Assembly: GCF_006345805.1 (NCBI RefSeq)
Contig: NC_042998.1
Coordinates: 176,452,001 to 176,516,000 of the forward strand
DNA: 64,000 nt
Source: Octopus sinensis
Lineage: Eukaryota
Reading direction: 5' to 3'
Numbering within the stretch: the stretch's first letter is position 1; each line of letters begins with the position of its first letter. This document shows positions 37,966-64,000 of this stretch, in pieces. The notes below the pieces were generated by a model, which worked only from the letters and a program-made list of their open reading frames with translations, did not search any database and had not been told where the DNA came from. The translations under genes were made by a program, and so were the position numbers.

Positions 37966-38010
<45 letters not shown>

Positions 38011-38588: not shown

Positions 38589-38620
<32 letters not shown>

Positions 38621-38825: not shown

Positions 38826-38861
<36 letters not shown>

Positions 38862-39915: not shown

Positions 39916-39952
<37 letters not shown>

Positions 39953-40289: not shown

Positions 40290-40327
<38 letters not shown>

Positions 40328-40495: not shown

Positions 40496-40587
<92 letters not shown>

Positions 40588-42794: not shown

Positions 42795-43803
42795 CTAGCA
42801 TTAAAGACCCGTCATTGCCGGGTCATAGTGCTAGTGCATGTATATATGTGTATATATATGTGTACATATTACATGTACATCTATATATATACATCTACAC
42901 ATAAAATACAAACTACAAAGTTATATCTTGATATCGCTAGTGATAACAATATTCAAAATATATAACAGAGTGGAATTGTTAGCTCGTCTCTTGTAATTTC
43001 GATCAATTGTATCTTGTCCTCCCTCTTGTATAGAAGTTTGGCTACAATCCAGCCTACCTCTACTTCGGGGGGGGGGGAGCATTAAAAATTTTTTTCCGGG
43101 ACGTCCTACGTCCCAGATATAAAGGTAAAAATAAAATATTTCCACTTTGCAAGTTCGAGTCGAATACTCCCTTGACTCGAAACTTGCTTCTATTGTGGCG
43201 AATTTACCGCCTCTGATTAGATATCTTTCATAGTCGCACCAAGACACTTTTCGAAGGTGCTTTCCTCCAGGTGTTCAAATCTTTTTTTTTTTCTCTACAT
43301 TGTATACTTTATAGACAATAGTCTTTTCTTTAATTTAATTTTTTATTATCCATCTGGACTATTCCATTTCTGCACGCTAATTTTATTTTTAATTTATTCC
43401 CATTCATGTGAAACCACTTATTCAAGTTCAAGTCATTGATGCAATTTTGTACCAATTGCTATTTTTACTTTTGTTATGCTACGATTATATTATACTTTAG
43501 TTTGATTTTAATTATTACTTACTACATATAATTCAATTGTTATTATTATTTTTATTGTTAAAGTGAAAGTATCTGACATAAAATAGAAAAATGTTTTTGT
43601 TTCACTTTTAACACGTAATACTGAAATAGTTGAGAAGATATGATATTGCTGTGGGCTCGCTCTAGGCAAGAAGTTGAACATCTTTTTTGCCCATGAAACA
43701 TGGACCTTAAGTAAGGCATGTGTAAAATTTGAATGAAATTGGTTGTGTAGTTCTCAAGTTTTAGGGAAACAGACACACATTCTCAGTTTTATATATATAA
43801 AGA
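42795..43803 (-). mobile_element. Non-autonomous Helitron (1009 bp)
   Basis: Minus strand starts A|TCTTTATATATATAAAACTGAG and ends with hairpin GACCCG-gcaatga-CGGGTC, then TTTAATG-CTAG|T: TC...CTAG termini, subterminal hairpin, A^T target site, no TSD. Confidence 0.85.
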
Positions 43804-45000
43804 TTGAAATGCTCTTAGACTGAATCCACCCACTACTTTAACAAAATTACTAACTGTACCAAATGACTTCTTTAGGTTAGCTCAAATTACAAATTGGACA
43901 CTGGACTTTCCTGAAGTATATATTGATTATAGTGACCAGTCACGTATCGCTATTCTATAGATATAATGAACAAAAGTATTTTGTAATCAGTATACCAGTA
44001 ACTTTGAGATTTCCACAAATATTCTCTTGATAAACTAATATTCAATGGTGTCATACAATATATCCATAAGATAAGAGTGAGTGGGCAATGAGGGCGCATG
44101 ACTTTACTTTCCCTTTATGCAGTAGCATTTCTGGCAAATTTTGTGAATAAATGAAAAGGTGCAAATCAGTATATGTATCTATGACGAAATTTCAATGTTT
44201 CATTGGTGTCATTACAATAGCAGAATGGAACATCTACTGTAAAGCTTATTAGTAAGGTAAAATTTGCTTTCAATAGTGTTTAACTCGCGGATTTGGGTGA
44301 AGTAAATTGCTTTCCATCTGCGTGAAAGCGGAAAGCTCCGCATTCTCTTTAGACATTCTTTCACAATACCATTCAAATGCTGATGAGTAAATTACCTTAA
44401 CCAATTAAGCACTTCATCACTGTCCATTTCATTGTCCATGGAGCTAGTCCCTCGATTACGAAAAAGGGAAAACCGGTATTGCTTCATTATGTTGAACTGA
44501 TCTGTGTGCTGGATTACAGGTTTAAATAAACCCAGTTACGTTAACACTACAAAAATAGCAGTCAGTAAGAACTCTTTGCTCTCTATATATTATGAATATT
44601 GCATCAGTCTTTTCCGCCCACTATTCTTGGTTGTATGGGTGTGGTAGAGTTTTCAGACACCTTCTACATAGGATCCTATCGAAATTAACTGGTATGTTAA
44701 TTACAAAATACTTTTGTTCATTATGATTGCTGTTGGAAAGATTTGAAGAATCCATTTTGCGATTCTTTCTTGCTACATTCTAATCGCAATTATGAAAAAA
44801 AAAAAAAAAGAAAAGAAAACGAACAAACAATCAAACAATGAATAATTACAAAAATCATTCGTACTACTGAAAATCCAAGAATATTTTCTGGTCTATCCAA
44901 AATAACTTCCACTGGAAATCTTTTGTTGACTTGTGAAAGAAGTAGAGTCCATTTTGATCCAGTAGGAGATTCAGCTTTTGAAAACTGCTTCATATTTATT

Positions 45001-45370
45001 ACTTACTGGTACTTGTGGCGACATTCACCCTGGGTGAGTTGGGTCGGCTTCTTCTACTCATGGAAGAAGTTTCGTGGGAATATGTGGGTTTCACAAGCGG
45101 TCCCCAACAATCCCGCATGTGGAGACATCCTGTTTGCCGCAGATTGTCAGCAGACGCAGGGACAGAGCGACCGAGGAGCCGCCGGTTGCCGAAGCAGAAA
45201 CTCTGAGGATTTTCACCGTCTGCTGGGTTGTGGCCTTAATATCACTCGGTGTCAGACCAATCCGCCTTGGGTGGCCCTACCAGGAACCGAAGTTCCCGAC
45301 GGCATAGCTCTGACACTACCCGTTGCCAGCGTCCCCACCACGGTGAGGGGGGATGGACTCTGGGGACGCC
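45001..45370 (-). mobile_element. Non-coding RTE-derived non-autonomous retroelement (5'UTR plus 3' end) with TSD
   Basis: 12-bp TSD TTCATATTTATT (44989-45000, 45371-45382). BovB/RTE 5'UTR-like motif GAGCTATGCCG..GTAGGGCCACCCAAGGCGGA..GGTC. Tail CAAGTACCAGTAAGT. Confidence 0.8.
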
Positions 45371-46415
45371 TTCATATTTATTGCTTATCTTATTATGAGT
45401 TCTCAAAAATTAATGACAGCTGTAAAGTAAAATTACTTTTTACTATTGAATATGATCACTATGATAATTAACAAAATATTCACGGGACTTCAAACTATAC
45501 GAGAGTGAACTATCTACTGTCCTTCCTATTCAGCAGTAGCGGTACAAAAGTGTATAAAAGTTGTTACGATAAACAAAGTTAAGAAGACATCAGGCGATGT
45601 TAAAACTTGCTTTAATATTGTCAATCGTGCATGACAAGCCCATTAAAGAAAAATTAGCCTAAATGCTTAATTGTCTTCAACCATCAAATTATACAGATCT
45701 TTCTACCCGAATATCAACAAGACTGAACAGCGAGCAAGTAAGAGAGCGCAACCAGTATCTCTCTACTAACTGTAGATGTAATTAGATTCGAGAAATCATT
45801 ATGGAATAGCTCTGGGCAGAAATATTAATGAAATTAGCTCTAGGATAGACAGTATTAGCATAGGGATCTGAAAGTTTGTTTATAAATATGAATATGAAAT
45901 ATGATTTATACAGATTGTCCAATCAAAACGGTTACACTTCTAATAAGATATTCTAATTACATTTAAATTTAATTAAATATTTAATGATGCAATCAGTGAT
46001 AATTACAGAAGAGACGATGTCGAATTTGCAATCATAAAGGATAAGAGAATCGTATGAAAACGCATGTGTGTAGATATAAATATGTGTATATAGATTTGCG
46101 TGCTTATGTATGCGCGTGTCAGTATATGTATATATAAATTGGTGTGTGTGTGTGTGTGCGTATGTGTATGTGTATGTATGTGTGTTTGTGTTTGTGTGTG
46201 TTCGTATAGGTCAAACATCAGTGGTCTCCTTTTTTTCGCTTTTCTGTTGATGATCAATTATCAGCTCCTTCTCTAAGGCTAATTATGCGAAACCTGGGTG
46301 TAGATTCAATCACGGCACATAAATATCTTAACGCACTTTAAAGACTTCGACCAAACGTATGAAAGCATGTGTGTGTGTGTATGTGTGTGCGTGCGTATGT
46401 ATGTATATGTGTGTA

Positions 46416-46459
<44 letters not shown>

Positions 46460-47766
46460 TATAATTCTTATATCTATCTATCTATCAATCTATCTATTTA
46501 TCTGTCAATCTATCTGTCTTTCTATCTCTATGGACCCGGAAAAAATTAAAACAAAGGGTTACCTACTTGCAAACAAATGTGGTAACATGTAACACCATTG
46601 ACCGAGGTTACCGTGGTCTTTTCCGTAGGCTTTTCTTTCCACGGATAAACCTTATCTGCTTCCCCTTTACACTTTACATCATGACATTTCTGTGATACAC
46701 GATCCCTATTGATCGTTTTTTCTTTTTTCTTTTTTCTTTCCCTGTCTTTCTATCTCTCTACCCCTCTCTCCCTCCCTCCCTCACCCCCTCTCTCTTGTAT
46801 ACATGTAAAACTGTACTCTAGTTTTATCTTTTTATCAAGATTACCCCATAGTTTCTTATGAGTAAAGTTCCTAAACCCATCTTTAATATTTGTAGAGGTT
46901 CATACCCTCATCGTAAAAATGAAGTGATGTTGTCGTGTACCGCTGCCTCTTAACGGAAGACAGGCCGTGTCAATATGACTGGTGTAGATATTACTGCGAG
47001 AATTCGAAATTTTAATTTATACATCATCAATTAAGTATTTCATTTTTGCCTGAGAGCAGTATATGTTGTCTGTATGCTTATTTTAGCATTCTTTTGTGCT
47101 ATGAATATTGATTCCTTCATAAATTGTATATTTTTGAGGGTAATTCTAAAAAAATATACATGTGTTGTCTACTAATGTTTTTTTGTATTTTTTGGTTGTA
47201 GTGCATTACTATAGAGTCTTGTTGTAAGTGCATGATGAGCCGGTTGGTGATACAAAATACATTATATCTAACCATATATTCGAACATTGACAATATTCTA
47301 CAAAAGTACTGAAATTAAGAACCTGTTTTTTTTTTTGTGGGGGTGGATTAGTAAGACATCAGAATCATGCAAAACCTGCAATCAAGCAAACAAAGAGCAA
47401 CGTTATTTATAAATACGACTGCAAACGTGAAAGTTGTAATCTTCACGTCTTGAACTCTTATATTAGCCATAATCTTCTGCGGACTTATCATGCACATGCA
47501 ATAAGAAGCAAAACGACTGCAATGTACTACATCATTCAACACAAAATAAAAGAAAATCAGAGGATAATATGGCGATAAACAAATACTCAAAGCAAAACTT
47601 AAAATAAGCCATGTATGATTTAAAAGCTAATGACAATATACAAGAATGACAAAAGCCAATGGAATTATAATCACGTATATTTTGCTACAATTAAATTATT
47701 CGGTAACACAAAGAAATTTATTACTTAATAATTTCACCACACTAATACTTGAATTGGATTTATTTT

Positions 47767-48162
47767 GGCTGTGTGGTAAGTAACCAACCACATGGTTCCG
47801 GGTTCAGTCCCACTGCGTGACATATTAGGCAAATGTCTTTTACTATAGCCTCGGGCCGACCAAAGCCTTGTGAGTGGATTTGGTAGACGGAAACTGAAAG
47901 AAGCCCGTCGTATGTATGTATATGCATATATATATATATATGTATGTGTATATTTGTGTGTCTGTGTTTATCCCCCCAACATCAATTGACAACCGATGCT
48001 GGTGTGTTTACATCCCCGTAACTTAGCAGTTCGGCAAAAGAGTCCGATAGAATAAGTACTAGGCTTACAAAGAATAAGTCCTGGGGTCGATTTGCTCGAC
48101 TAAAGGCGGTGCTCCAGCATGGCCACAGTCAAATGACTGAAACAAGTAAAAGAGTAAAAGAG
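47767..48162 (+). mobile_element. SINE family A
   Basis: Near full-length copy. Confidence 0.9.
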
Positions 48163-48163
48163 C

Positions 48164-49110
48164 ATGGTGATTGACGATAAAAGCAGAAATACTAGCCTCT
48201 ATTTCACCTACTCTGAAGAAGAATACGCCCCCGCATCTATCTACGAAGCTGTAAAAATACACAAACGAAACGACTACCTCAGGCTCATAATATTTCAAAT
48301 AAACATAGTGACAGAAAAGATCGCAAAACAATTAGATAATACTAGCAAACATGCGCATACAGAAATATACAGTTTCCAAAGAGCTCCTGGAGATCTTAGA
48401 AGAAATCAGCATTCCTGCCTTTGAAGTATAAAGTCTGTTTACTAACGTTACAGCAGCAAAAGTAAAAGAAACAATATTGAATAGTGTATAAAAACAACCC
48501 AAAATAAACCACCGGATACCCACTAACACACCGAGGAAATTATTAGTCTTGTACAATAGAAATGTCCACAAGATAAATTATTTATGCACAATGACGAAGT
48601 CGTCACAGTTTCTCCTTTAGGATCTATGGTCGTGACATCTATGGGGGAAAATGGCATCAGTGCAAGACATTCAATATACTCATCGCTATGGACACACCGG
48701 AAGATGTCGAGAAATTAAAGAAAGCCCTACAAACAATCCGTAATAAGATTTAACATTTAGAACAGTAGAACAGCAGAAATACAATTCCCAGCAAAACAAT
48801 GACACAATTTCTAGACATAAACATTCTGATATAAAATAATAGATAAATCACGTCCATTTCTATCAAACACGCAAATAATTGCATCTAGATATATGGAGAC
48901 AGCAAATCTCCACGCTGATGCAAAATATCATTTAGATTTTAGATACCAAATATATTGTAGATATAAAATGTCATTTAGAAGAACATTTAGATTTTTCTCA
49001 ATAATTGAAGTCTCAGATAAAGAAAAGCAGAATAAAGGCTATTCTAATCAACATCGAGTATTCTACCAAATTAATAGACCAAGTCACTAAACAATACAGG
49101 AAGAAATACA
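48164..49110 (+). mobile_element. Decayed Penelope-like reverse transcriptase
   Basis: YAPASIYEAVKIHKRNDYLRLII (cf. YGxPKIHK..PLRPII), AFEV*SLFTNV (cf. SFDVxSLFTNVP), DEVVTVSPLG (cf. DGVAMGSPLG), QFLDINI, in correct order with stops and frameshifts. Confidence 0.8.
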
Positions 49111-49385
49111 ATGCAACAAATACATCAGACATTCCACCTACACAAACCACATATAATATGTATTAAATAAATCAAATGCTTACTAACTGTAGAATAGCTG
49201 TGTATACATTATCAAAAGTTTCATGAAACAGAACACAATATACATTAAAACCAAAATATAAATTGCTTGTGATTATGTACTAACAAAAACGCTAAAATGG
49301 AAATTATATTTATCAGTGGCAAACCATAAGCATGAAAAATACATATATACATACATACGTACATGTATGTATATTTGTGTGTGCG

Positions 49386-49423
<38 letters not shown>

Positions 49424-49538
49424 TTCACCAGTTGGCTAATAGATCAGATGTATGTATGATGTATGTATGTATGTATGTATGTATGTATGTATGTATGTAT
49501 GTATGTATGTATGTATGTATGTGTGTATGTATGTATAT

Positions 49539-50075
49539 GTCAGGTCACTTTCGAGTGCTACTGGTAACATGTAACCCAGTACTACTTGTTGCATGGTCGG
49601 GTCGTCGGCGACTAAACCGGCAACCCCACCAAGCTCGCTTGGTGAGGAGGATGTTTATTGGTCACCCTGCGGGATGAAAAACAAAACCCGTCAAAGGGCG
49701 GAGGAACTCTTGAGAGTCAACGGCCATCCAATAAATGTCTTAAGGCTGTATTATGCTCGGGGACATAGATATAATCGGACTGAATACCCGATCGCGCGGT
49801 TAAACCATTAGGAGTGAAGGACTCCTAGCCTTTGTCAGGGCATCCTTCTAGGAGAAGGCAACTCAGGTAACTGGGATAACTCCGACATAAAACCTGCGGT
49901 GATGTTGACTTGTTCTTCTTTTCGGATTATGGCTGCTGTTGCTTAGTGAGTAAGATTGACTCAGTGCACAGCCTTTCCTCACTTAAAAAATATCTTCTTG
50001 CACAGGCATTGCACGATAACAACATTGATTAAGCTTCGTGCAATGGCCATACTCGATTATGAGGGGGCAGCCACC
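49539..50075 (+). mobile_element. Structured non-coding retroelement-like repeat embedded in (TATG)n
   Basis: Second copy at 63887-64000 with the same start, also after (TATG)n. Contains the RTE-5'UTR-like CCTAGCCTTTG..GGCATCCTTCTAGGAGAAGGCAACTC and several hairpins. Confidence 0.7.
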
Positions 50076-50426
50076 ATGTATGTATGCATGTATAGTATAT
50101 TATCTATTATTGCAAATCGGTAATTGTATGCTTCACGACTCCAATTATTATTTTGGACATACAGGTGCAACACTGTTCTGCTGGATCACTTTGCACTTAC
50201 AGCAAAAGGCAATTGCAATGCACTGTAACATACAACATAAAACAAAACAAGATCGTCAATGGACAGCACATCTATATCATACAGAATTCATCATAAAAAT
50301 GGATGATTAATGACAGATGCAATAACCATGACTCAGCTTAATGCTAAAACAAAACACAAGCAATGTATACAAGCTATGATGACGTAGAAATTTAATGGTT
50401 AAATTTCAAATTCCGGTAGTAATGTC

Positions 50427-50680
50427 CAGTGTTTCTCAACTGCAGTTCATATGGCCCTTTCGGGGTCCATATAAGATTTTGTTGTTAAAATTTATCTCCA
50501 ATAAATTCGTTATACTTTTACAATACACAAAATATTTTAATAATTTTTTTATACAATTCCTAATATTTTGATTATAAAGATATAATAGGATTTTTAAAGA
50601 TGGAGTGATGGTGAGGGTACATCAAAGTATAATCAAAGACTAAAAGGGCTCCATAAGTAAAAACTGGCTGAGAAACATTG
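50427..50680. mobile_element. Old hAT(Charlie)-like MITE
   Basis: Terminal inverted repeats CAGTGTTTCTCAAC / GCTGAGAAACATTG; no recognisable TSD. Confidence 0.55.
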
Positions 50681-50956
50681 GCCTACATCAACCAGGTCGA
50701 CCCTGTCTATTATAAAGAAGCAGTAACAGATGACATCATGCTTAATATGAAGAAGGTTTAGAAGGGTTAATGAGTGATTTAAGAACTTTTACTGTAACAA
50801 AAAACCCATGAAACTTATAGAAAAATATGGAGGGAAAATAAATTTGATAAGAAAGATGAAACTAGAAAACAACTGTGTTTATTGATATGCTTTTTCCCCC
50901 ATTACAACATATCTAAAAGAAAAGGTGAGATCGATTAAATCCAGATAATATGCGCA

Positions 50957-50993
<37 letters not shown>

Positions 50994-51335
50994 TAGCACA
51001 CGTTTACCAGGACTGAGTAGACATCGTATGAACAGAAACGAAAGTGGTATTCATGTTTATGCTTAACGTCTGCAAGACAGAGTTCCGTTGTTAAATGATC
51101 TGCTATGGTATATTTTCTGTTTATATTTTACAGCCTTCAACCGAGTAGAATTAGCAGGTGGCATTGCTTTGTTATATCTGTCCATTAATTAGTGAATTTT
51201 TGTGGCTGCCAGTCTTGTATGGTTTCGATACATTGACATCAGACAATACCGCGCGACATTACACTATACACACATCCACCAACGCATACCCACGCGACAG
51301 ATTGATATATATATGATCGTGGGCTGGGTTCTTAC

Positions 51336-51420
51336 CACATAAGAAAACACTGGATTTGTGGAATGGTCACCATTGGGAGTATTTTCTTCGCAAGTCTGGT
51401 TCATTATTGTTGACCTGTAG
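51336..51420 (-). CDS. Candidate exon of an unidentified minus-strand gene (possibly carrying the start codon)
   Basis: Non-repetitive sequence. Acceptor ttcttgttgtttag (alternative ctacag 6 nt inside), donor GTG|gtaaga. One open frame (MNQTCEENTPNGDHSTNPVFSYV). No partner exon found. Confidence 0.25.
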
Positions 51421-51980
51421 CTAAACAACAAGAATAACCCCTCCCACATACACTTTTTCTTCTTTAATCTTATGTTCATTAATTAATTGTCATATATAAA
51501 ATCCAATGAGATCATTGCATATGCTTTCTTTAAGAGAGTGTCCACTATGGTGTATGCGTTTAGGAGTGTGTGTGTGTGTATTTAACTGTTAGTGTACACA
51601 GTCACACAGAAACACATACACACACACAAACAGAAACACACACACGCATACACTCACACACACACACACTCACTCACGCGCGCACACACGCACACATAAA
51701 CAGCTCTAATTGGCATATCCAGCCTTCGGACAAAATTAATTGACTAAAAAAGAAAAAAAGACACATAACTGACAATGAAAGAATAATTGACAAAAAAGAT
51801 AACAAATACTATCAACAGAGAATATCATCATAAAAAACTTGCTTTGTTTTTATTATTGTCTGACTGATATTTGTTTCAGGAAAAAGTATCTTTTGACATT
51901 AGTTAAATAGGAAAAAAAAATTTAATGAGAAAATATTGAAACATTTCGTAATAACATTTTAACATTTTGTGATTCATTTA

Positions 51981-52065
<85 letters not shown>

Positions 52066-52071
52066 GCCTGA

Positions 52072-52121
<50 letters not shown>

Positions 52122-52127
52122 GCCTGA

Positions 52128-52197
<70 letters not shown>

Positions 52198-52203
52198 GCC
52201 TGA

Positions 52204-52249
<46 letters not shown>

Positions 52250-52255
52250 GCCTGA

Positions 52256-52286
<31 letters not shown>

Positions 52287-52309
52287 CTGTCTGTCTGTCT
52301 GTCTGTCTA

Positions 52310-52342
<33 letters not shown>

Positions 52343-52345
52343 ATG
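51981..52345. repeat. (TATC)n array with periodic TGCCTGAC interruptions, grading into (TGTC)n
   Basis: Four identical interruptions form a higher-order repeat. Confidence 0.9.
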
Positions 52346-52874
52346 TCTGCCTGTGTAAGTATGTATGTATGTATGTATGTATGTAGTATGTGCGTGTATG
52401 AATGAGTGTACGTATGTATGCATGTATGTGTGTATATGCGTATGTATGTATTTATATGTAATATACATGTCTATAATACACACATACGTGTGTGTGTATG
52501 CGTATGTGTGTTGTGTGTGTGTATGCCTTGTGTTTGTGTGTGCGTGATGGGTGTGTGTGCGCGCGCGCGTGCGTGCGTGTGTGGCTTAGAAAATGAAAAA
52601 GAAAATAAATTTCTAAAATTTCACATCTGGCTACTCTTATGCATCCATCATAAAACTGGGCATGTGGAAAAGGAAAGCCATTGTACTAGATAAAGAACAG
52701 TTACTTTTAAGCTATGACCTTCGGGTGTATCGATCGATATTGCAGAGCACGCCCGAAACGAAATCAAAGTTCCGTCAATTCTTTTGGACAATCACTTGGT
52801 ATTTATGGAATTCTTGGAATGGGATTTTTTTTTTTTCTCATTGGAACTTGTTTTTACAGTTGCTTCTATTTGCT

Positions 52875-53201
52875 GTGAAGGCACGTGGCTTCGTAGTTAG
52901 TATGTTCGGGACACAATCGTAAAGTCGCGAGATCGATTCCCGGCGGTGCGATGTGTCTTTTAGCAGGACACTTTATTTCTCGTTGCTCCAGTTCACTTAT
53001 TTGGCCAAAGTGAATAATATTTGTATTTCAAAGGGCCAGCCTTTTCACGTTCTGTCACGCTGAGTCTCCCTGAGAACTACGTTAAGGGTACGCGTATCTG
53101 TGGAATGCTCAGCCACTGGCACGTTAATTTCACGAGCAGCCTATTCCGTTGATCGGATCACCTGGAACCCTTGTCGTCGTCGTAAGTGGCGGAATGCCAG
53201 T
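52875..53201 (+). mobile_element. SINE family B head with a third tail type
   Basis: GTGAAGGCACGTGGCTTCGTAGTTAG head and TTGCTCCAGTTCAC body; distinct tail CAAAGGGCCAGCC...GGAATGCCAG. Confidence 0.75.
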
Positions 53202-53699
53202 TTTTAATTCTATTTGTTAGTAGACTCATTGCTATTAAGCTACTTCCATTACGTAATGTTGAAATACCAAAATTCAAAGTAACAAGAGTACCCAAACATG
53301 AGATTTAGTCCGTGATAATTCATAGATATACTTAAGGTATTCAACAATCCCGTGTGATAATCAACTCCTGAATCTCTTCCCTGTGCAAATGCTGTATCAA
53401 TTGATTTATATATGAAATTGATGACCTTGATATAATGTTCTGGAACTATAACTTCCCTTTCCTAAAACGGTTTACAAGTAAGGTGTTGATGTACTAAATA
53501 ACGTAAAGAAAATATTCTTAATGAATCGAAATTGAAATAGTTGGAGAAAGAACTTCTTATTCAGTTGACAGATACACAGACTCTGTAGTACTGACGAGGA
53601 CTAATAACGCTGAAACATGTCCGTTGTTATAGTCCCGCTAGATACAACATTTTTATTTAAGCATGAGAATTATTATCATTTCTACAGAGTTACTCGTCA

Positions 53700-53950
53700 T
53701 ATTACGCACAAATTAGGACCTCCGTTTCCGGTTTTAAATCCCTTTTAGTCATCCACAGCCATCTTTTTTCTCTGCCTGTCTTATCTTCAACCTCCCTATG
53801 AAGTTGTCCATGCATTCTTTTCTTTATCCACCTATTTTCAGCTTCATTTATTCTCAAATGCTTGTACAGTGCTTTATCTTTGTAATCTTCCATCCTACAC
53901 AAGTTTGACCTTAATTCCAATAATAGCGGTTCTGTAACATTTTTTTAAAT
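53700..53950 (-). mobile_element. R4-like LINE fragment
   Basis: W.KKRMHGQL.RE...WLWMTKRDLKPETEVLICA. Confidence 0.75.
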
Positions 53951-54120
53951 ACCATGCTATTATTATTATCATTATTAATATTACAACTACTACTACTACT
54001 ATTATTATTACTACTACTACGACGACGACGTACCATGCTATTAACTTTATTATTATTATTTTATTATTATTATTATTATTATTATTATATTATTATTATA
54101 TTATTATTATTATTATTACT

Positions 54121-55756
54121 CAGTAGTTTTATTTTTATAACGTGCTTTCACTTCACTACCGAGCGCAGCTCTGTGTGCCTTGGGTATGTGCTGTGATCTG
54201 TTGTGATGCTCTGATGGTTACTGTATTGAAAGTGCGGCGAGCTGGCAGAAACGTTAGCACGCCGGATGAAATGCTTAGCGGTATTTCGTCTGTCGTTACG
54301 TTGTGAGTTCAAATTCCGCCGAGGTCAACTTTGCCTTTCATCCTTTCGGGGTCGATAAATTAAGTACCAGTTACGCTCTGGGGTCGATATAATCGACTTA
54401 ATACCTATGTCTGTCCTTGTTTGTCCCCTCTATGTTTAGCCCCTTGTGGGTAATAAAGAAATAGGTTACTGTATTGAAAGTGTTCTGCATAGGATGTGTG
54501 CAGTGCCTACTAGTGCAATTTTCTGTATGTTATATGTGTTTGTAAGTCCTGGTGTTTTTGTTATGTATTTGTCTGAATATTTTTTTATCATGCCTAATGC
54601 ACCTACTATGATGGGAAATGTTTCTGTTTTTAGATTCCACATTCTAGTTACCTCTATTTCCAGGTCTTTGTCTTTTGAAAGTTTCTCCATTTCTTTTAGA
54701 GATACGTTGTCATTTGCTGGTATTGATGCATCAATTAGAAAGCATTTTTTTCTTCATGATCTCTGACAACTATATCTGGTCTGTTGGTCTTAATTTCTCT
54801 ATCTGTGTGTATTCGCATATCCCAGGTATGGTTGCTTTCTCGTTTCCTGTGACCTTTTCTGGCGTGTGCCTATACCATCTTTTTTCTGTTATTCCATAAT
54901 GTTGGCATAGCTTCTAGTGTATGTAGGTTCCAACTCTGTCATGTCTGTGAATATATTCCTTCTTTGCCAGGACTGGGCAGCCAGAGATAAGATGATTTAT
55001 TGTTTCTTGTCCATCTCCACATATTCTGCAGTTACTTGTTATATTTCTTTTCATTACATGTTTTGATAATTTCTGGTGGGGAAGCTTTGGTCTTGTGCTG
55101 CAATTAAAAATCCCTCTGTTTCTGCTTTGAGTCCTGAGCTTCTCAACCATTGCTGGGATTTTTCTTTGTCTATTTCTTTTGCGTTTAGTTTAGTCCAGTA
55201 TTTGCCATGAAAGGGCTTTTCTTGCCATCGTTTTATCATGGTCCATTGCTGTTCTAGTTTTAGTTTGGATTTCATTTGTTTCATAGCTTTTGTTGTTTCT
55301 TCTTCTTCTTCTTCTTCTTCTTCTTCTTCTTCTTCTTCTTCTTCTTCTTCTTCTTCATATTTGTTAGGTGGTATGATTTCTTGTTTGTATTTGTCAGCTT
55401 CCTTAAATACTGAGAACAGTTTTTTGTTTTGCTCGTGTTTTGCCGTTATTTGTATCAGTGTTCTTTCCTTATGAAGTAGATATTTTTGCAGTCCTATGGT
55501 GGTTATTTTATAGTAGTTTTGCAGCTATATAATAGGGCCTCTACTATATATACGTTGTATATATAGCCTTTCTATGTCAGATTTTGGGTGATGCATCCTA
55601 GATCCTGTCATTATTTTTCTTGTTTTCCTATCTATTTTGGTCAGTTCATTTAGTGTCCAGTTAAGGATATTGTAGCTGTAACTTATAACTGGGACGGCTA
55701 AAGTGTTAATACCTATTATCTTGTTTTTAGCATTGAGCTCTGTTTTTAGTATTTTC
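54121..55756 (-). mobile_element. 5'-truncated R4/Dong-like RLE LINE with (TAA)n 3' flank
   Basis: KILKTELNAK.KIIGINTLAVPVISYS...WQEKPFHGKY...GLKAETEGFLIAAQDQS...CRICGDGQETINHLISGCPVLAKKEYIHRHD...IIVGALG...IQKIALVGTAHILCRTLSIQ*. Frameshifted; contains an internal (GAA)n expansion. Confidence 0.92.
54235..54463 (+). mobile_element. SINE family C (Meta-domain-like) inserted into the LINE
   Basis: Perfect 19-bp TSD GGTTACTGTATTGAAAGTG (54216-54234, 54464-54482). B-box GAGTTCAAATTCC. GCCTTTCATCCTTTCGGGGTCGATAAATTAAGTACCAG resembles the MetaSINE central domain. Confidence 0.9.
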
Positions 55757-55890
55757 GGTTACTTCTGCGGCGTTATGGCCTAGTTTAAACTCATAAAGCG
55801 TAAGTTCCCAAATTAGACTACTTTTCATGTTCATCTGTGCCGTTTTCAAATCACATACGGAGTGAAGCAATGCACAACGCGTCAGCGTAC
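55757..55890 (-). mobile_element. Mariner transposase N-terminal HTH fragment
   Basis: MNMKSSLIWELTLYEFKLGHNAAEVT (cf. LYEFxxGxxAAEA of Mos1/Hsmar1-type HTH). Confidence 0.7.
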
Positions 55891-56154
55891 CAACTACCAA
55901 GATACTACCAACCACAGCGGAGATCCAGCGCGGCTTGAACCGTTTCGAACACGCGATGTGCAAGCTACAATCTAGCACGTATACAAATATTGCAAAACCT
56001 TTTACCGACTCCAAACGGATGAAAGACAAGGCAACCTCGGCGAAATTTGAACGAAGAATATAAAGGCGGCTGAAATGCTGCTACGCCTTTTCCCGGCGAT
56101 TTAGCTTTTCTGACGGCTTGCCACCTTGTGAATATTGATATTAAATCAAGCTGA

Positions 56155-56350
56155 GGGCGACAAACTGGCATAGTTACTACCGCGACGGGCAAAATGCTTA
56201 GCGTCACTTCGTCCTTCTTTACATTTTGAGCTCAAGGTCATCGAGGTCGACCTTACCCTTCAGCCTTTCGGGGTCGATAAAATAAGGACCAGTTGTAATC
56301 GAATTGCTTCCAACCTCGAAATTGCTGATCGTGTACCAACATTTGAAGTC
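56155..56350 (+). mobile_element. SINE family C, diverged (an inverted fragment lies at ~55975-56115)
   Basis: GGCGA.CAAACTGGCA...GAGGTCGACCTTACC.TTCAGCCTTTCGGGGTCGATAAAATAAG. Confidence 0.7.
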
Positions 56351-56859
56351 GACATTAAATCAAGTTCACTTAATGCAGTCTACCATCATCTGTAAACTAC
56401 TGGGAGACAGTTGTTATGTCATAGAAAATATACAAACTGTATATCAAAAAGTAATATAGAGTTTCAAATATCAAACAAAATAGAGGAAAATGTATTGTTT
56501 CACGTTAAATCTTTTTTAGCTTCTAAAATATTTTGGTATTTTGCTCAATGAATCGGACTGTGACTTCTTTTTATAAAAATTTGTTATATACTCAAACATA
56601 TAAAAAATTAACAATCCTATTTGTAGAGCATAAAACACTGAATATTGTGAATATGTGAAGATTTTTTCAATGCGAAATAATGAAAGAATACATTATTTTC
56701 TGACTTCCACAGTATTTGAAACCTTGTTATAAATTTTCGAAGATACGACTTTTAGATGTGAAATTTCATTAACGATATACGACAGACAAATGTATGTATG
56801 TATGTATGTATGTATGTATGTATGTATGTATGTATGTATGTATGTATGTATGTATGTAT

Positions 56860-57204
56860 GGCATTATCCAGTTTTATTTCAAGATTTTTTGCCAATACAG
56901 GAGTCGGTTTCAAGGTTACTTCATTGGAATTTCAACATCAGCATGGTATTTCTGCATGTATGTGTGTATATGTGCAGTGTTAAGAATCAGTGCATGTGCA
57001 GATTTGTATGCTTTGTTTTATGTATGTATTCTCATGCATATAGTTGCGTGTCTAGACAAGCTCAAATATGCTTAAATGATAAACTTCTGGAAAGCTTTTA
57101 CAACTTTTTCCAGTTCCAATGATTGCTTGGATCTGTAGTTTTCGAATTAGCTTTCTCCTTTCTGGTTTTGAGAAACCTAATTTTTCAAGATTGGTCCTTA
57201 GGCA
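56860..57204 (-). mobile_element. 3' end of the (CATA)n-associated RLE LINE family, copy 1
   Basis: [33 protein letters not shown] plus 3' UTR, homologous to 7715-8068; (TATG)n on both sides. Confidence 0.85.
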
Positions 57205-57267
57205 GTATGTATGTATGTAGTATGTATGTATGTATGTATGTATGTATGTATGTATGTATGTATGTAT

Positions 57268-57611
57268 GGCATTATCCAGTTTTATTTCAAGATTTTTTGC
57301 CAATACAGGAGTCGGTTTCAAGGTTACTTCATGGAATTTCAACATCAGCATGGTATTTCTGCATGTATGTGTGTATATGTGCAGTGTTAAGAATCAGTGC
57401 ATGTGCAGATTTGTATGCTTTGTTTTATGTATGTATTCTCATGCATATAGTTGCATGTCTAGACAAGCTCAAATATGCTTAAATGATAAACTTCTGGAAA
57501 GCTTTTACAACTTTTTCCAGTTCCAATGATTGCTTGGATCTGTAGTTTTCGAATTAGCTTTCTCCTTTCTGGTTTTGAGAAACCTAATTTTTCAAGATTG
57601 GTCCTTAGGCA
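57268..57611 (-). mobile_element. Tandem duplicate of 56860-57204
   Basis: Same truncation point; about 2 differences seen. Confidence 0.85.
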
Positions 57612-58637
57612 GTATGTATGTATGTATGTATATTATGAGAGATGACTAAGAACGTGTACATATGAGAAAGAGAGAAAGATTGATGAATGTGTGAAAGAAA
57701 AGAAAAACCAATTTGACGTGAAAGTCACAGAAGGTCTTTTTTATATCTCATACTAACACTACTATTAAACTACAACTCCATGACAATTTTCAGCCTTTCT
57801 ACATCTCTTTTGTTAATTCATACCTACTTTACTCCAGGGACATCTCAGACCCGAAATTTTATTGATTTATATATTTATTCATTTATTTATTTTGCTCATG
57901 CATTATTCTATTTTGCATCTGGATGTTCCTGGGAAATTTGTTAAAGGTTTGATGAGAAACGGCAAATTTGCTTCAAGCTGAACATCGAAACTGGCAGATA
58001 TAGATTATGTTCTCCATATTCACTTCCTAAGAATCATATAAAGATATAAATAATCTCTTTCTATAAATATTATTATAAGCTGTCTTTTTTTTTGTGGTTG
58101 TTATTGTATCTTAAGAATGTGCTAAAGAGATTCTTCTTTGGAAATGTTCGATAGCAAAACAGCAATTTTTATCAAGGCATTACCACCTGCTTCTGTAGAT
58201 TCGATATTGCTAGTATAAAGCAATTTCAACTGTATCTGAACAGATGCACCTGACGTATGTAGGAGAAGGTTGGGTAGTGCGTAGTAGAAGAATCACCATA
58301 GTTTAAAGCCCTTTAATAGGTCTCGTTTGTCTGTGAGTAATGTGGGTTGCAATGATTCCAGCGTTCCCATGGTGAGGATGGTAACAATAATGATACGATA
58401 ACGGTTATAATATGGTTAATAATGTGACTCCTGCGCAAATGTAAGTATATTTGATTGCAACAACCCTCTGCAATCATCTTCCACCGTAGAACAGATAACA
58501 GGCAAAACCGAGCTCGGATGAACACATTAGTTTGGGAACGATATCAATATGTGTGTATCTATGTATGGTAATGTATTGTATGTATCTATGTATGCAAGTA
58601 TGTATTTTCACACACACACACGCAAACACGCATATAT

Positions 58638-58681
<44 letters not shown>

Positions 58682-58901
58682 TATGCACTGTATATAGTTC
58701 ATGCACCTAGATTATTCATATACACTCTGCTATCTATACACACGGACATACGTATATACACATATATTAATATATATACATAAATATGCATATGAGCGTA
58801 TGGGTCTATCTGTCTATCTGTCTGTCTGCCTCTCTCTCTATATGTGTGTGTGTGTGTAGTAGTAGTAGAAGTAATAGTAGTAGTAGTAGTAGTAGTAGTA
58901 T

Positions 58902-58932
<31 letters not shown>

Positions 58933-58949
58933 AGCAGCAGTAGTAGTAC

Positions 58950-59001
<52 letters not shown>

Positions 59002-59491
59002 TAGTAGTAGTAGTAGATACGGCATAACCCAAATGGTGTCCTTTTAAAGCACATCTGCTCGTTCCAGTACCCAAAACCTGTATGTAGATGTTATATTTGT
59101 GGAAGGTGTGCATAAAATTCATCACATAGTAAAACAGGAGATTGGAAAAAAAGATTTTGGTATTATTTACTCACCATTACACGTGTTTCAATTTTTTCTT
59201 TTTTTTTTTTTTTTTTTTTTGTTGGACAGAGAATCGAATAATATTATTTGATTCTATATCTGAAGAATTTCTAATAGGAGATATCTCACATGTTTCTCCT
59301 ACTTGTTACAATTTTGTGATTCCTATTATCAAATGAAGCACATATAACGCTGAATAAATTTTTTTCCCCAATCTCCTTCTGCTATAGCCCCGAGCCCACC
59401 ATTGACGCCTGCGTATAACGGTTTCTTCACCAGGTTATTAGTGTCACAATGTCTAAGCGATGATACTAATTACAAAGTGTAGAAATCTCAG

Positions 59492-59591
59492 NNNNNNNNN
59501 NNNNNNNNNNNNNNNNNNNNNNNNNNNNNNNNNNNNNNNNNNNNNNNNNNNNNNNNNNNNNNNNNNNNNNNNNNNNNNNNNNNNNNNNNNN
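59492..59591. other. Assembly gap (100 N)
   Basis: Run of exactly 100 N. Confidence 1.
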
Positions 59592-59592
59592 T

Positions 59593-59910
59593 ATGTGCCT
59601 CATGTCGGGCGGTTGGCTCATCCTGTATTGTGGAGATGAGGATGTATAGCTCGTTTTTGAAGACATCTATTTTAACCTTATGCCGTATTCTTAGTTTTTG
59701 TTGCAGTGCATTGAAGAGCTATGGGCCTTTGAGCTATGGGCCTTTGAGCCATAGGCTATTGCAGCACCTGGTCCTGAACTTAGATACAGTGGATGGTACC
59801 TTTAGTACAATACAATGACGTCAAGTTCTGGCATTTGTATAACACTCAATGCCGAAATTAAGTACTAGCTCTTCTAGAGCTTTCCATATGTAGAATATTG
59901 CATTGCTGCT
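59593..59910 (-). mobile_element. CR1-group LINE ORF2 C-terminal fragment
   Basis: IFYIWKALEELVLNFGI...NART*RHCIVLK...RTRCCNSLWLKGP*LFNAL...DVFKNEL..LISTIQDEP; internal 15-bp tandem duplication. Confidence 0.7.
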
Positions 59911-60039
59911 TTTTATAATACTTAAGAGGCACAAGGGTCTACTGCAGCCTGCTTAACTTTCGGAATGGTATACTTACCAAAAGTTACCTTGTATTGCTTT
60001 TAGTAGTGTGGCTTGCATGTATACACACGAACATACACA

Positions 60040-60072
<33 letters not shown>

Positions 60073-60081
60073 CATACATAC

Positions 60082-60149
<68 letters not shown>

Positions 60150-60204
60150 TATAACCTCATGAGTATAACCTCACCCACTAAGATGTCTAGAGAACTTATA
60201 TGTA

Positions 60205-60296
60205 TTTTAGCTGATGAGTACGGGACACTTTTATCTGCTGCAATTTTTGCCAACTTGTAATAAAGCCTGTCTTTGTATGAAACAATTGTACTAAAA
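60205..60296 (+). ncRNA. Type I hammerhead ribozyme motif (PLE/retrozyme-like)
   Basis: TTTTAG (60205-10), CTGATGA (60211-17), helix II GTACGGGACA...TGTCTTTGTAT, GAAAC (60279-83), AATT, GTA (60288-90), CTAAAA (60291-96). Perfect 6-bp helix I, intact core, palindromic helix III ACAATTGT. Confidence 0.8.
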
Positions 60297-60323
60297 CTAA
60301 TCCATTCTTGTTGCTTCTGTCTC

Positions 60324-60378
<55 letters not shown>

Positions 60379-60491
60379 CGTAGTTCTCCAGGTGTTCAGG
60401 TACGGTACTTGATTATACATGTTCCCTGCATATGGAGATCTAGTTGTGCTTCCTATATATATATATATAATATATATTATATATATATATT

Positions 60492-60583
<92 letters not shown>

Positions 60584-60847
60584 TAGATAAATATATATAA
60601 ATTAATTAGAGATAAAACCCCTATTACGCAAATCAAACAGTGAAAAACATAAACCAAAAGATAATAATGATAATAATTAATATAATATACATAAAATATA
60701 AAATTTAAAAATTTAAATTATTTAAATTTAAAATTTAAATTATTAATTTATAGTTATAATTTTAAAAAAATTTTATTATTATTTTTTATTAAATATATAT
60801 AACTATCAAAAAGTATTAAAAAGTTTAATATAAGATCAAAAGTAAAA

Positions 60848-60941
60848 CCACTACGTTTCATGACCATAACCTAATTCGAATTACAATAATTTAAATTCAA
60901 TTAATAATTCGAATTATGGTTATAGTCAATCTTCAGTTTAA
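60848..60941 (-). ncRNA. Degenerate hammerhead-like motif with long helix II
   Basis: Minus strand: CTGAAGA-T-TGACTATAACCATAATTCGAATTA...TAATTCGAATTAGGTTATGGTCA-T-GAAAC-GTA. Helix II about 23 bp, but helix I does not pair. Confidence 0.4.
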
Positions 60942-61614
60942 AGATAATCGTTAAATAAATATGCAAATATATTTAAACAATATTTTTAAAGAAATAAATA
61001 AAATAATTTTTCTTATAAAAACTCTATTATCAAACTAGAAACTTTAACGATTATGATTATGTCATACAATCCAATTATAATGTTAAATATTAATTTTTAA
61101 GAAAATGTATTCATCTATTCAGACTGAATATGGCTTTAAAAAATATATAATAAACTCACGAATAACCTAATCTCAGTTATAGTCAGAGTGCATTGCTTTC
61201 CGTTACGTAATAAATGAAAAAAAATCTATTGTAAATACACAAAAGAAAAGTATCCGTTTGTGCACTCAATATACGTTATACGCTTTTTACTTTTCGTTTG
61301 TGCATATACTATATATTTTTTCATTTATTTTATATATGTATATATCGGGAAGAGATGTCTTCCTGGGGCTATTAACGTCAGTAGCACTGTCCTATATAGG
61401 ACGCTACACTTGGTTGACAATTATATGTTTCGATTCCATATTACTGCTGTGTATATCTCGCTCAGAGATTTAATATAGTATATTTCATTTTATATATATA
61501 TCTTATATATATATATATATATATATAATATCATTATATATATGATAGATCTGTTAGCCACTACACACATTTTTTCTCTCTTTGTTTCTCTCCTGTTTTT
61601 TTTTTTTCTGTTTT

Positions 61615-61653
61615 CCGTTCTGTAGAAGAGCGTAGGCTCGAAACGCAAAATAC
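61615..61653 (+). ncRNA. Degenerate copy of the U6 hammerhead-like motif (CUGUAGA)
   Basis: CTGTAGA-A-GAGC(GTAG)GCTC-GAAAC-GCA. Cleavage triplet mutated GTA>GCA and helix I weak. Confidence 0.45.
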
Positions 61654-62144
61654 TTTTTCTATTCCTGAGCGTTATACTAATACATCTGTTTGTTTTGTAC
61701 ACACCTGTCTTCGTCTTTTGTTTGTTTTTTCGTAACTCTCCTATATATCTATCTATATATATATATATCTATATATATATTATTATATATAATATGTATA
61801 TATATATCCATATATTAGATTTTTATGTATGTATATTTCATTTATTAGCTATATATATAAACAATATCGAACGCACATACGCAGTGTAAGTGCTTCGCTG
61901 GTTCGTCGATCGGTGACGATTTGAGGCGTTGGAGATGGCACTCTCGAAACGCCGGGTGTTAAAACACCTAAAAGTCAGCCAGAGATAGACATGCGAGTGA
62001 ACTTATGCCAAGTTCCATTCAGGAGCGATGGATATCGATGTTCCGTCATTTTCGTGATGTATCAACATTACGTACCCGAACCGAACCGGTGGGAAATTAT
62101 ATTATACTATATTATATGCAAACTTGTGTGCACGCATACATATT

Positions 62145-62300
62145 GGCGTAGGAGTAGCTGTGTGGTAAGTAGCTTGCTTACCAACCACATGGTTCCGGGT
62201 TCAGTCCTACACACCTTGGGAAAGTGTCTTCTACTATAGCCTCGGCCGACCAAAGCGTTGTGAGTGGATTTGGTAGACGAAACTGAAAAAAAACCCGTCG

Positions 62301-62370
<70 letters not shown>

Positions 62371-62590
62371 ATATGTATGTGTGTGTGGTGTGTGTGTGGT
62401 GTGGTGGTGTGTGTGTGTGTTGTCCCCGACATCATCGCTTGACATCGGTTCGGCAAAAAGGACCGATAGAATAAGTACTTGGATTACAAAGAATAAGTCC
62501 TGGGGTCGATTTGCTCGACTAAAGGCGGTGCTCCAGCATGGCAACAGTCACATGACTGAAACAAGTAAAAGAATAATAAGAGTAAAGAGT
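62145..62590 (+). mobile_element. SINE family A, full length
   Basis: GGCGTAGGAGTAGCTGTGTGGTAAG...GAAACAAGTAAAAGA. Confidence 0.9.
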
Positions 62591-62831
62591 ATATACACAT
62601 AAATGTGTTTGTGAGAATTTTATGGAACATTTCTGTAATATCTTGTGTATATGTCTCGACCATTTAATGAATATTCTGTAAATATTACAAATATTTCCCA
62701 GTTCATCATAGAATTAGTTCTGCAATATCATGATACTTATATAGAGAGGTTATTCTGCATATTCCAGATATCTTTCCGAAAATACGTCCGTGTATATACA
62801 TATCAGTATACATGTGGGTGGGTTGTATATC

Positions 62832-62866
<35 letters not shown>

Positions 62867-62939
62867 TATATATAGATATATATATATATATAATATCAGT
62901 ATGCATGTGTGTGTGTGTATCTATATATATCAGTATGCA

Positions 62940-62970
<31 letters not shown>

Positions 62971-63727
62971 TATATATATATCTGTGTGTATGTCTATTTG
63001 TTCGTATGTGTGTGTGTTTGTTTGTGTGTATATGTGTTTGTGTGTGTGTGTGTGTGTGTACGTGTGCATGTATGTGTTCATGTTTGTGTGTGTGTGTGTT
63101 TGTTTATGTGTGTGTGTGTGTGTGTGTGTGTTTGTGTGTGTGTATGCGTGTGTGTTAGACCTGAGTCAAAGCAACGTCAGTTCGGTATGTGATTTGCACC
63201 AAATCAAATACGTATTTGTATCGGATGGTAATTCATGCATTAACGGTACAGTTAGCTGCAGGTTTTACTAAGCGTTGATCACGCTTCACCTAATACGATA
63301 GGTCGAAACAGTTGACGGAACCCAATTTACCAGGATTATTTCTCCCTAGCACACTTTCCATATAGACGTAAGGGAAAATTCGTGTGTGTGTGGAATCATG
63401 TGCATGTGTATATATGTATATACAAATATGCATGCATGTATGTATGTATGTATGTATGTATGTATGTATGTATGTATGTATGTATGTATGTATGTATGTA
63501 TATATGATTATATTTGTTTATGTAGATATGTATGTATAATATGTGTATGTATGTATACATATGGTCGTACTTATTGAGATTACTTTCATGCATACATATT
63601 TGTGTGATTTCGTAATGTATGTTTGTCTGTATGTGTGTACATGTATTTGTGTCTGTGTACTTAGATCTGTGTGTATGGGTAGGTTTGGGATTGTAAATGG
63701 ACAGAATACTCACTAGATTCCTAGGTG

Positions 63728-63760
<33 letters not shown>

Positions 63761-63822
63761 CAAGTCAGAGATAAATACAAACTCACATAAACACGCACAC
63801 GTATATATGTCTAATTGTATAG

Positions 63823-63853
<31 letters not shown>

Positions 63854-63886
63854 TGTATGTATGTATGTATGTATGTATGTATGTAT

Positions 63887-64000
63887 GGTCAGGTCACTTT
63901 CGAGTGCTACTGGTAACATGTAACCCAGTACAACCTGTTGCATGGTCAGGTCGTCGGCGACTAAACCGGCAACCCCACCAAGCTTGCTTGGTGAGGAGGG
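63887..64000 (+). mobile_element. 5' part of the 49539 repeat family (runs off the window)
   Basis: GTCAGGTCACTTTCGAGTGCTACTGG...CACCAAGCTTGCTTGGTGAGGAGG after (TATG)n. Confidence 0.8.

What the first reader, a model, noticed from the sequence alone, without database searches (positions are those of the whole stretch)
60148..60325. Canonical, apparently intact hammerhead ribozyme in a ~175-bp element embedded in (TA)n
Seen: all conserved core nucleotides are present (CTGATGA, GAAA, GTA triplet). Helix I is a perfect 6 bp (TTTTAG/CTAAAA), helix II is extended and closed by G.U, and helix III AC-AATT-GT is a perfect palindrome. The motif makes up about half of a short non-coding island bounded by (TA)n. 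Established: such type I hammerheads mark PLE termini and small non-autonomous retrozymes, which can yield circular RNAs in metazoans. Inference: a self-cleaving mini-retroelement or PLE terminal repeat. It is on the same strand as the WD40 gene, so it could cut the pre-mRNA if that gene extends this far.
Basis: partly seen in the sequence, partly recalled or inferred. Interest (0 to 1): 0.75.

Follow-up and report, generated by a model that had tools for sequence, protein, structure and literature searches.

The report
Snapped-off tip of Penelope retrotransposon
This 178-base island is the broken-off end of an abundant protein-coding jumping gene (a Penelope-like retrotransposon of a known kind) sitting in an intron; its hammerhead self-cutting RNA motif is real but is predicted to cut poorly on its own, and it carries a conserved signal that likely marks where the element's messenger RNA ends.

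Summary
The hammerhead motif is real (window 60205-60296, + strand). Its helices covary across related families in this genome, although Rfam misses it. It is not a stand-alone retrozyme. It is the 5'-truncated 3' tip of a Penelope-like element (PLE) with at least 605 exact-core copies. Longer copies carry an RT + GIY-YIG frame on the same strand, with the motifs that define the Hydra clade, and they insert into (TA)n. All 36 two-armed inverted insertions examined pair the element's two different fixed ends. The copy lies in sense orientation in a ~42.7-kb intron of an FBXW7-like gene. Its palindromic helix III predicts cleavage as a dimer, and no matching partner lies in the gene. Copy 5' ends do not pile up at the predicted cut. 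The unusual trait is a 61-nt helix II holding a conserved A(A/T)TAAA 17-26 nt before the cut, a likely poly(A) signal. This scan reported the same kind of element and hexamer before, in another genome. Verdict: a new family of a known kind.

The parts
60157..60324 (+). 5'-truncated 3' tip (pLTR end) of a Hydra-type Penelope-like element, single-armed, ending at the family's site A (TCTCG|TATA)
   Evidence: 97-98% identity to the top genomic copies over query 10-178; same 3' end as most single-armed copies
60148..60156 (+). 9-nt junction duplication (AGTATAACC; AGTATAACCTCA occurs at 60148 and 60162), likely a template slip at a TCA microhomology during 5' truncation
   Evidence: one search shows the repeat; other copies align only from query position 9-10; slip mechanism is inference
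60205..60296 (+). Type I hammerhead motif: helix I 60205-60210/60291-60296, core 60211-60217 and 60279-60282, predicted cut after 60290
   Evidence: sequence; covariation in alignment A2
60218..60278 (+). Enlarged helix II (61 nt): 7-bp base stem plus apical hairpin TGCAA-TTT-TTG(C)CA; this copy has a one-base insertion in the apical stem
   Evidence: (apical helix: 4 of 6 pairs with two-sided change)
60259..60264 (+). AATAAA inside helix II, 26 nt before the predicted cut, followed by a U/GU-rich tract at 60302-60324; likely the element's polyadenylation signal
   Evidence: A(A/T)TAAA in 15 of 15 family variants and 209 of 212 fetched copies, the most conserved 6-column block of the helix II interior; function inferred
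60282..60289 (+). Palindromic helix III strand ACAATTGT, predicted dimerisation arm
   Evidence: related families carry ACGATCGT, ACGATTGT and ACATATGT; 100% of cells pair; self-duplex -6.4 kcal/mol
60059..60147 (.). (TA)n target microsatellite, 5' side
   Evidence: sequence
60325..60372 (.). (TA)n target microsatellite, 3' side
   Evidence: sequence
33817..64000 (+). Host intron of an FBXW7-like F-box/WD40 gene (donor GT at 33817; next exon at about G000:C2:176528480, beyond the window; ~42.7 kb)
   Evidence: protein P0034 maps exon by exon to C2:176395286-176622972 on +

Best explanation
The island is the last 168 bases of an endonuclease-bearing Penelope-like retrotransposon with Hydra-clade motifs, likely written into a (TA)n run by target-primed reverse transcription that stopped early, and it likely is an inert passenger in this intron. 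Shown: the full unit is ~4.6 kb, with pLTR, a ~118-nt tail, one ~950-aa RT + GIY-YIG frame, a ~1.4-kb 3' region and the hammerhead near its end; copies end at one of two fixed sites, +35 (A) or about +153 (B) from the predicted cut; inverted two-armed insertions always pair one A with one B end. Inferred: the element's protein, probably as a dimer, nicks both strands of TA repeats and starts cDNA internally at A and at B on an RNA that is continuous across the hammerhead cut site (uncut or re-ligated); this copy is an A-initiated cDNA that ran ~170 nt, slipped 9 nt and was joined to the target. Inferred: in the parent RNA the hammerhead cuts only when two motifs pair through the palindromic helix III or with help from the element's protein, and the A(A/T)TAAA in helix II ends a share of transcripts by ordinary polyadenylation at about the same place, while read-through RNA serves as template.
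For: Copy family and polarity. RT and endonuclease frame on the same strand upstream, in the window's own subfamily: L031. pLTR-ORF-pLTR units with hammerhead-to-hammerhead spacing of 4.57-4.76 kb in 10 of 11 two-hammerhead loci, 1.75 kb in the internally deleted L079. Tail equals the sequence between pLTR end and ATG. Intact 947-aa frame in a sister subfamily, L209, with RWK, ADKT, GLYRDD, CKCRIKSKC, CQLC..E and CVH, matching the Hydra definition (PMC8557442 section 11). A+B pairing in 24 of 24 divergent pairs and 12 of 12 further inverted arms, as expected from two internal start sites and extension of both strands shown in vitro for an Anolis PLE (PMC11167929). Template continuity: 0 of 30 ORF-start copies begin at the cut and 25 run through the upstream hammerhead; copies starting at the cut in AT flanks number 4 against 2 at a control position. 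Dimer dependence: palindromic helix III kept in all 15 variants; low monomer activity of PLE hammerheads (PMC4209133).
Against: No intact frame or 5' pLTR was found in the window's own subfamily among the copies fetched (L031 is frameshifted and 5'-truncated); the intact frame is from a sister subfamily 78% identical over the body. Clade assignment rests on motifs and by-eye comparison with the published alignment, not on a tree. The unit (4.6 kb) and tail (~118 nt) are longer than published for Hydra elements (<3 kb) and PLE tails (30-40 bp). Pfam gives no significant hit for the protein. Cleavage, polyadenylation and transcription were not measured.
Confidence: 0.9

Rival explanations
1. The island is a short non-coding retrozyme of ~170-180 nt that is excised by two hammerheads, circularised and re-inserted.
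For: Size and type I topology fit the 170-400-nt range of metazoan retrozymes (PMC7229834 passages). The 5' and 3' pLTRs of one locus are closer to each other (0.7%) than between loci (2.5%) in 11 loci, which a circular template would give.
Against: No tandem arrays: 1 same-strand pair among the first 100 hits, with identical junctions like a local duplication. 5' ends are scattered from -38 to beyond -2100 and lead into an RT frame. The within-locus similarity is equally expected from a tandem transcript, and own pLTR was strictly closest in only 6 of 11 loci.
Confidence: 0.03
2. Whatever its origin, this sense copy acts on the host FBXW7-like pre-mRNA, by ribozyme cleavage or by premature intronic polyadenylation at its AATAAA, and shifts output towards short isoforms.
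For: It is intronic and in sense orientation; core, hexamer and downstream U/GU tract are intact; the gene has an annotated alternative last exon in the same intron in a related species (P0004, window 47202-47312).
Against: No compatible partner hammerhead in sense within 232,401 bases covering the gene. The monomer fold is disfavoured. The copy is young (~2% diverged), so intactness is not evidence of selection. A full-length 411-aa protein is annotated across it.
Confidence: 0.1
3. The motif is a chance match in AT-rich repeat DNA and has no selected structure.
For: No Rfam hit; the isolated strand is not more stable than shuffles; the bare core pattern occurs in 14 of 100 shuffles.
Against: Invariant core with compensatory changes in all four helices across families whose proteins differ by up to ~44%; same position as published Hydra hammerheads.
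Confidence: 0.01

Closest known systems
Hydra clade of C-terminal EN+ Penelope-like elements (Craig et al. 2021, PMC8557442; passages, section 11 and supplement extracts read), including Hydra-1_Obim of Octopus bimaculoides
   Same: Single frame RT then GIY-YIG; RWK, DKT, CxCx5C, CxxC and CxH motifs; (TA)n targeting; a hammerhead near the 3' end with palindromic helix III; a G..U pair at the base of helix II is also seen in some listed members.
   Different: A different family from Hydra-1_Obim (2.5 kb, other hammerhead sequence). Unit ~4.6 kb against <3 kb; frame ~950 aa with Asn-rich insertions (16% N); ~1.4 kb between stop codon and hammerhead; helix II region 61 nt against 12-25 nt in the listed Hydra hammerheads; A(A/T)TAAA inside helix II.
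PAc (Poseidon of Anolis carolinensis; Frangieh et al. 2024, PMC11167929; parts 1-2 of 4 read)
   Same: Two fixed 3' ends with the tail between them; AT-rich targets; hammerhead upstream of the start sites; insertions made from RNA that is not cut at the hammerhead.
   Different: Other clade; in PAc the hammerhead overlaps the start codon and the start sites lie in the frame, whereas here both sites precede the ATG (+35 and ~+153 against +210) and the tail is ~118 nt rather than 30-40.
Metazoan non-LTR retrozymes (PMC7229834, passages; bioRxiv 10.64898/2026.07.22.740005, part 1 of 5)
   Same: Type I hammerhead, small AT-rich island, link to PLE pLTRs.
   Different: No tandem unit, no fixed monomer length, and longer copies encode the enzyme.
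PLE minimal hammerheads (Cervera and De la Pena 2014, PMC4209133; parts 1-2 of 4 read)
   Same: Larger than usual helix II, small palindromic helix III, mostly dispersed single motifs from truncated PLEs, some as close opposite-strand pairs.
   Different: Helix I is a full 6 bp and helix II is far longer than their 7-8 bp.

Membership tests
Type I hammerhead ribozyme | Conserved core CUGANGA, GAAA, NUH | tested here: met
   invariant in 15 of 15 variants
Type I hammerhead ribozyme | Three helices with covariation, helix I open-ended | tested here: met
Type I hammerhead ribozyme | Match to an Rfam hammerhead model | tested here: not met
   no hammerhead family at gathering score or E<=10; the 61-nt helix II is the likely reason
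Type I hammerhead ribozyme | Site-specific self-cleavage | not testable with these tools
   indirect genomic test found no pile-up of 5' ends at the cut
EN+ Penelope-like element | Single frame with RT and C-terminal GIY-YIG on the strand of the pLTR | tested here: met
   L031 (own subfamily, frameshifted); L209 intact 947 aa; recognised by motifs, Pfam silent
EN+ Penelope-like element | pLTR-ORF-pLTR partial tandems, inverted 5'-truncated copies, tail at one end | tested here: met
Hydra clade | RWK motif and DKG changed to DKT | tested here: met
   IRRIRWKT and PADKTGN in L209
Hydra clade | CxCx5C linker, CxxC and CxH around the catalytic E and N, no CCHH | tested here: met
   CKCRIKSKC, CQLCSME, CVH; one Cys only between the GIY and YIG triplets; definition
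Hydra clade | Insertion into (TA)n | tested here: met
   TA runs at or within a few bases of nearly all 85 arm ends listed
Hydra clade | Generally short (<3 kb) | tested here: not met
   unit 4.57-4.76 kb; a tendency in the paper, not a diagnostic
Hydra clade | Phylogenetic grouping of the RT with described Hydra members | not tested
   reference proteins were seen only as text in the supplement and compared by eye
Non-LTR retrozyme | Tandem repeats of a 150-450-nt unit, each with a hammerhead | tested here: not met
Non-LTR retrozyme | Non-coding, non-autonomous | tested here: not met
   family encodes RT + EN
Non-LTR retrozyme | Abundant small circular RNA | not testable with these tools
   only assembled contigs of uncertain kind were available

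The most novel reading that the evidence does not exclude
This octopus Hydra lineage has built its polyadenylation signal into the ribozyme: A(A/T)TAAA in helix II puts the host 3'-end cleavage site on the hammerhead's own cut site, so one 90-nt module sorts each transcript into polyadenylated message, ribozyme-cut RNA or read-through template. Every sense intronic stub, including this one in the FBXW7-like gene, is then a portable premature poly(A) site.
Probability: 0.25. Interest if true: 0.55.

Novelty: new member of a known kind. Interest (0 to 1): 0.27.

Why it matters
As filed, it adds an undescribed, recently active ~4.6-kb octopus family to the Hydra clade and shows that isolated hammerheads in (TA)n are retrotransposon debris that Rfam misses. 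Two things are usable. The 36-of-36 pairing of site A with site B ends turns the published remark that the tail is often at one end only into a strict rule, and gives a genomic test of the two-start-site, both-strand model from PAc. The conserved hexamer offers a concrete answer to the open question of how PLE transcripts end and what their hammerheads are for; if it works as a poly(A) signal, about a thousand stubs could truncate host transcripts.

Tried and rejected
Rfam scans: no hammerhead hit, only microsatellite-driven miRNA matches. Single-strand folding: no stability signal. Pfam on the element's protein: nothing significant; the homologue search gave 17 unnamed proteins at 33-43% identity and one partial octopus hit. 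Expression: no RNA holder listed; four runs guessed to be RNA were laid as contigs on a sister copy and cover it, which shows presence only and nothing on starts, ends, strand or circles. No reads or contigs were laid on the window itself, so transcription across this copy is open. Idea that copies begin at the hammerhead cut, prompted by the 39-nt stub at 18839: rejected, 4 against 2 at a control site and 0 of 30 ORF-start copies. 'Core intact in 182 of 189 copies' was not used: many loci were selected by an exact core pattern and two rows were unrelated sequence. The cluster of apparent 5' ends at -300 to -302 marks where alignment to the reference copy breaks, not real ends. Within-locus pLTR identity does not separate a circle from a tandem transcript. 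Paper searches found no description of this family or of a poly(A) hexamer inside a PLE hammerhead; one search returned one review, seen as a listing only; subscription journals, Repbase and Dfam were not searchable, and the bioRxiv supplements were not seen.

Full report
Observation. Rfam finds no hammerhead and the strand alone folds no better than shuffles, so the motif is not canonical in the Rfam sense. A strict descriptor hit 0 of 100 shuffled windows. The decisive support is comparative: in 15 variants taken from related families of the same genome the core is invariant, helix I changes from TTTTAG/CTAAAA through TTTTGG/CTGAAA to TTTCGG/CCGAAA and GCGG/CCGC, helix III stays self-complementary (ACAATTGT, ACGATTGT, ACGATCGT, ACATATGT), 12 of 25 pairs show two-sided changes and 0 of 500 shuffles reach that (the rows are related, so this is not a P value).

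What the island is. A search of the own genome gave 1814 candidates, of which 40 were scored; the best are 97-98% identical over query positions 10-178. A 28-base core pattern has 605 exact matches against 0 for the reversed control, and a second subfamily pattern has 358. Copies share the 3' end and extend upstream to variable lengths. Walking upstream in the window's own subfamily reaches a frameshifted RT + GIY-YIG frame on the same strand in L031. A sister subfamily (~80% DNA identity) gives whole pLTR-ORF-pLTR units: 11 loci have two sense hammerheads, 4.57-4.76 kb apart in 10 and 1.75 kb in one deleted copy. L209 holds an uninterrupted 947-aa frame with RWK, ADKT, GLYRDD, CKCRIKSKC, a GIY-YIG core without CCHH, CQLC..E and CVH. 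These are the features by which Craig et al. define the Hydra clade, with (TA)n targeting (PMC8557442 section 11). Their octopus member Hydra-1_Obim is 2.5 kb and has a different hammerhead (supplement), so this is another family. I did not build a tree; the published alignment was compared by eye. The host is an octopus by the names that sources give the gene's proteins.

Not a retrozyme. Of the first 100 listed exact-core hits, 50 form 25 divergent inverted pairs, 2 form one same-strand pair and 48 are single. The same-strand pair has identical junctions and looks like a local duplication (L151). Retrozymes are defined by tandem non-coding units (PMC7229834 passages; bioRxiv 10.64898/2026.07.22.740005 part 1).

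How copies are made. Copies end at site A, 35 nt after the predicted cut, or at site B, about 153 nt after it; the ~118-nt tail between them is the sequence that precedes the ATG at +210. I fetched 24 of the 25 divergent pairs, the same-strand pair and 35 of the 48 singles. All 24 divergent pairs have one A and one B end. Twelve of the 35 singles carry a shorter or diverged inverted arm, in all 12 of the other type; 23 show none within the fetched flank, 20 of them not B-ended. The window's copy belongs to this commonest class, and its 5' junction repeats 9 bases. This fits the in vitro work on PAc, where both target strands are cut and extended, reverse transcription starts at two internal sites that bound the tail, and hammerhead mutants insert normally (PMC11167929 parts 1-2). 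Craig et al. note that the tail is often at one end only. That the template spans the cut site is shown by this copy itself and by 25 of 30 best-scoring ORF-start copies that run through the upstream hammerhead, none starting at the cut (two of the 30 rows are arms of one locus). Copies that start at the cut in AT-rich flanks number 4 genome-wide against 2 at a control position. The template is therefore uncut or re-ligated; pLTR identity within loci cannot decide which.

What the ribozyme likely does. Helix III has one to two stable pairs as a monomer; the constrained hammerhead fold costs 8.2 kcal/mol over the minimum for this copy (1.8-10.9 in four relatives), whereas the helix III strand self-pairs at -6.4 kcal/mol. 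Published PLE hammerheads of this build cut weakly and as dimers (PMC4209133) or with protein help. Selection keeps the fold in active lineages, but this stub needs no function of its own to look intact at ~2% divergence.

The unusual trait. Helix II spans 61 nt, against 12-25 nt in the published Hydra table. It holds an apical hairpin with compensatory changes and an A(A/T)TAAA 17-26 nt before the cut in 15 of 15 variants and 209 of 212 fetched copies; only the two main poly(A) hexamers occur, while the strand facing it varies; background in the same elements' 3' regions is 7 of 46, 5 of 45 and 0 of 63 windows (copies are related, AT content is high). A U/GU-rich tract follows the cut. That this spacing matches a metazoan poly(A) site is recalled textbook knowledge; the function is inferred and untested.

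Host gene. The WD40 exon at ~10086-10273 belongs to an FBXW7-like gene whose 411-aa protein P0034 maps to eight exons from C2:176395286 to 176622972 on +. The element lies in the ~42.7-kb intron that starts at window 33817, about 26 kb from the donor. In 232,401 bases covering the gene, the only family pieces are this copy, a 39-nt coreless stub at 18839 and one weak 71% match in L129; the descriptor found one other sense hammerhead-like motif with a different helix III and four antisense ones. Cleavage of the pre-mRNA in cis is therefore unlikely; premature polyadenylation is the more plausible effect, and neither was measured.

Verdict. Observation confirmed; interpretation half right. A new, recently active family of a described clade, with a sharp two-end rule and a possible poly(A) module inside the ribozyme. 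The scan has reported the same class several times on other DNA; the look-up by this sequence found nothing. Interest 0.27.

Noticed in passing
window 18839-18877 (+): 39-nt 3' tip of the sister subfamily in the large (TA)n at 18180-19255; it starts within 2 nt of the predicted hammerhead cut and lacks the core. One of 4 such copies genome-wide, not an excess over the control.
   Followed up: yes
window 47202-47312 (+): Alternative last exon of the FBXW7-like gene with polypyrimidine tract, AG and in-frame stop; 89% identical to the end of the 255-aa O. bimaculoides protein P0004, which would give a short isoform with about three WD40 repeats.
   Followed up: partly
L214, L215, L216, L222, L225: A more distant Hydra-type family (56-60% protein identity, intact 842-aa frames in three copies) with hammerhead helix III ACATATGT and the hexamer 17 nt before the cut; L215 has two hammerheads 891 nt apart before the frame.
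   Followed up: partly
L077:8953-9900; L076 about 8161; L081 about 1089 (oriented coordinates): Other Hydra-like RT fragments and other hammerhead families lie right beside these insertions, as expected if several families target the same (TA)n runs.
   Followed up: no
L128:7018 (+), L128:7369 (-), L130:6529 (-), L132:3732 (-), L134:9790 (-): Five further hammerhead-like motifs of other families in introns of the same host gene, four of five antisense.
   Followed up: no
L031:9049-9254: The window's subfamily has a ~102-nt tandem duplication (88% identical) in the 3' region upstream of the hammerhead that other subfamilies lack or carry differently.
   Followed up: no
window 32993-33699 and 56796-57631: Two-copy tandem duplications of 324 and 407 bases at 94-99% identity, each bounded by microsatellites; could be assembly artefacts or recent duplications.
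   Followed up: no
window 59492-59591: A 100-N assembly gap 560 bases upstream of the element.
   Followed up: no
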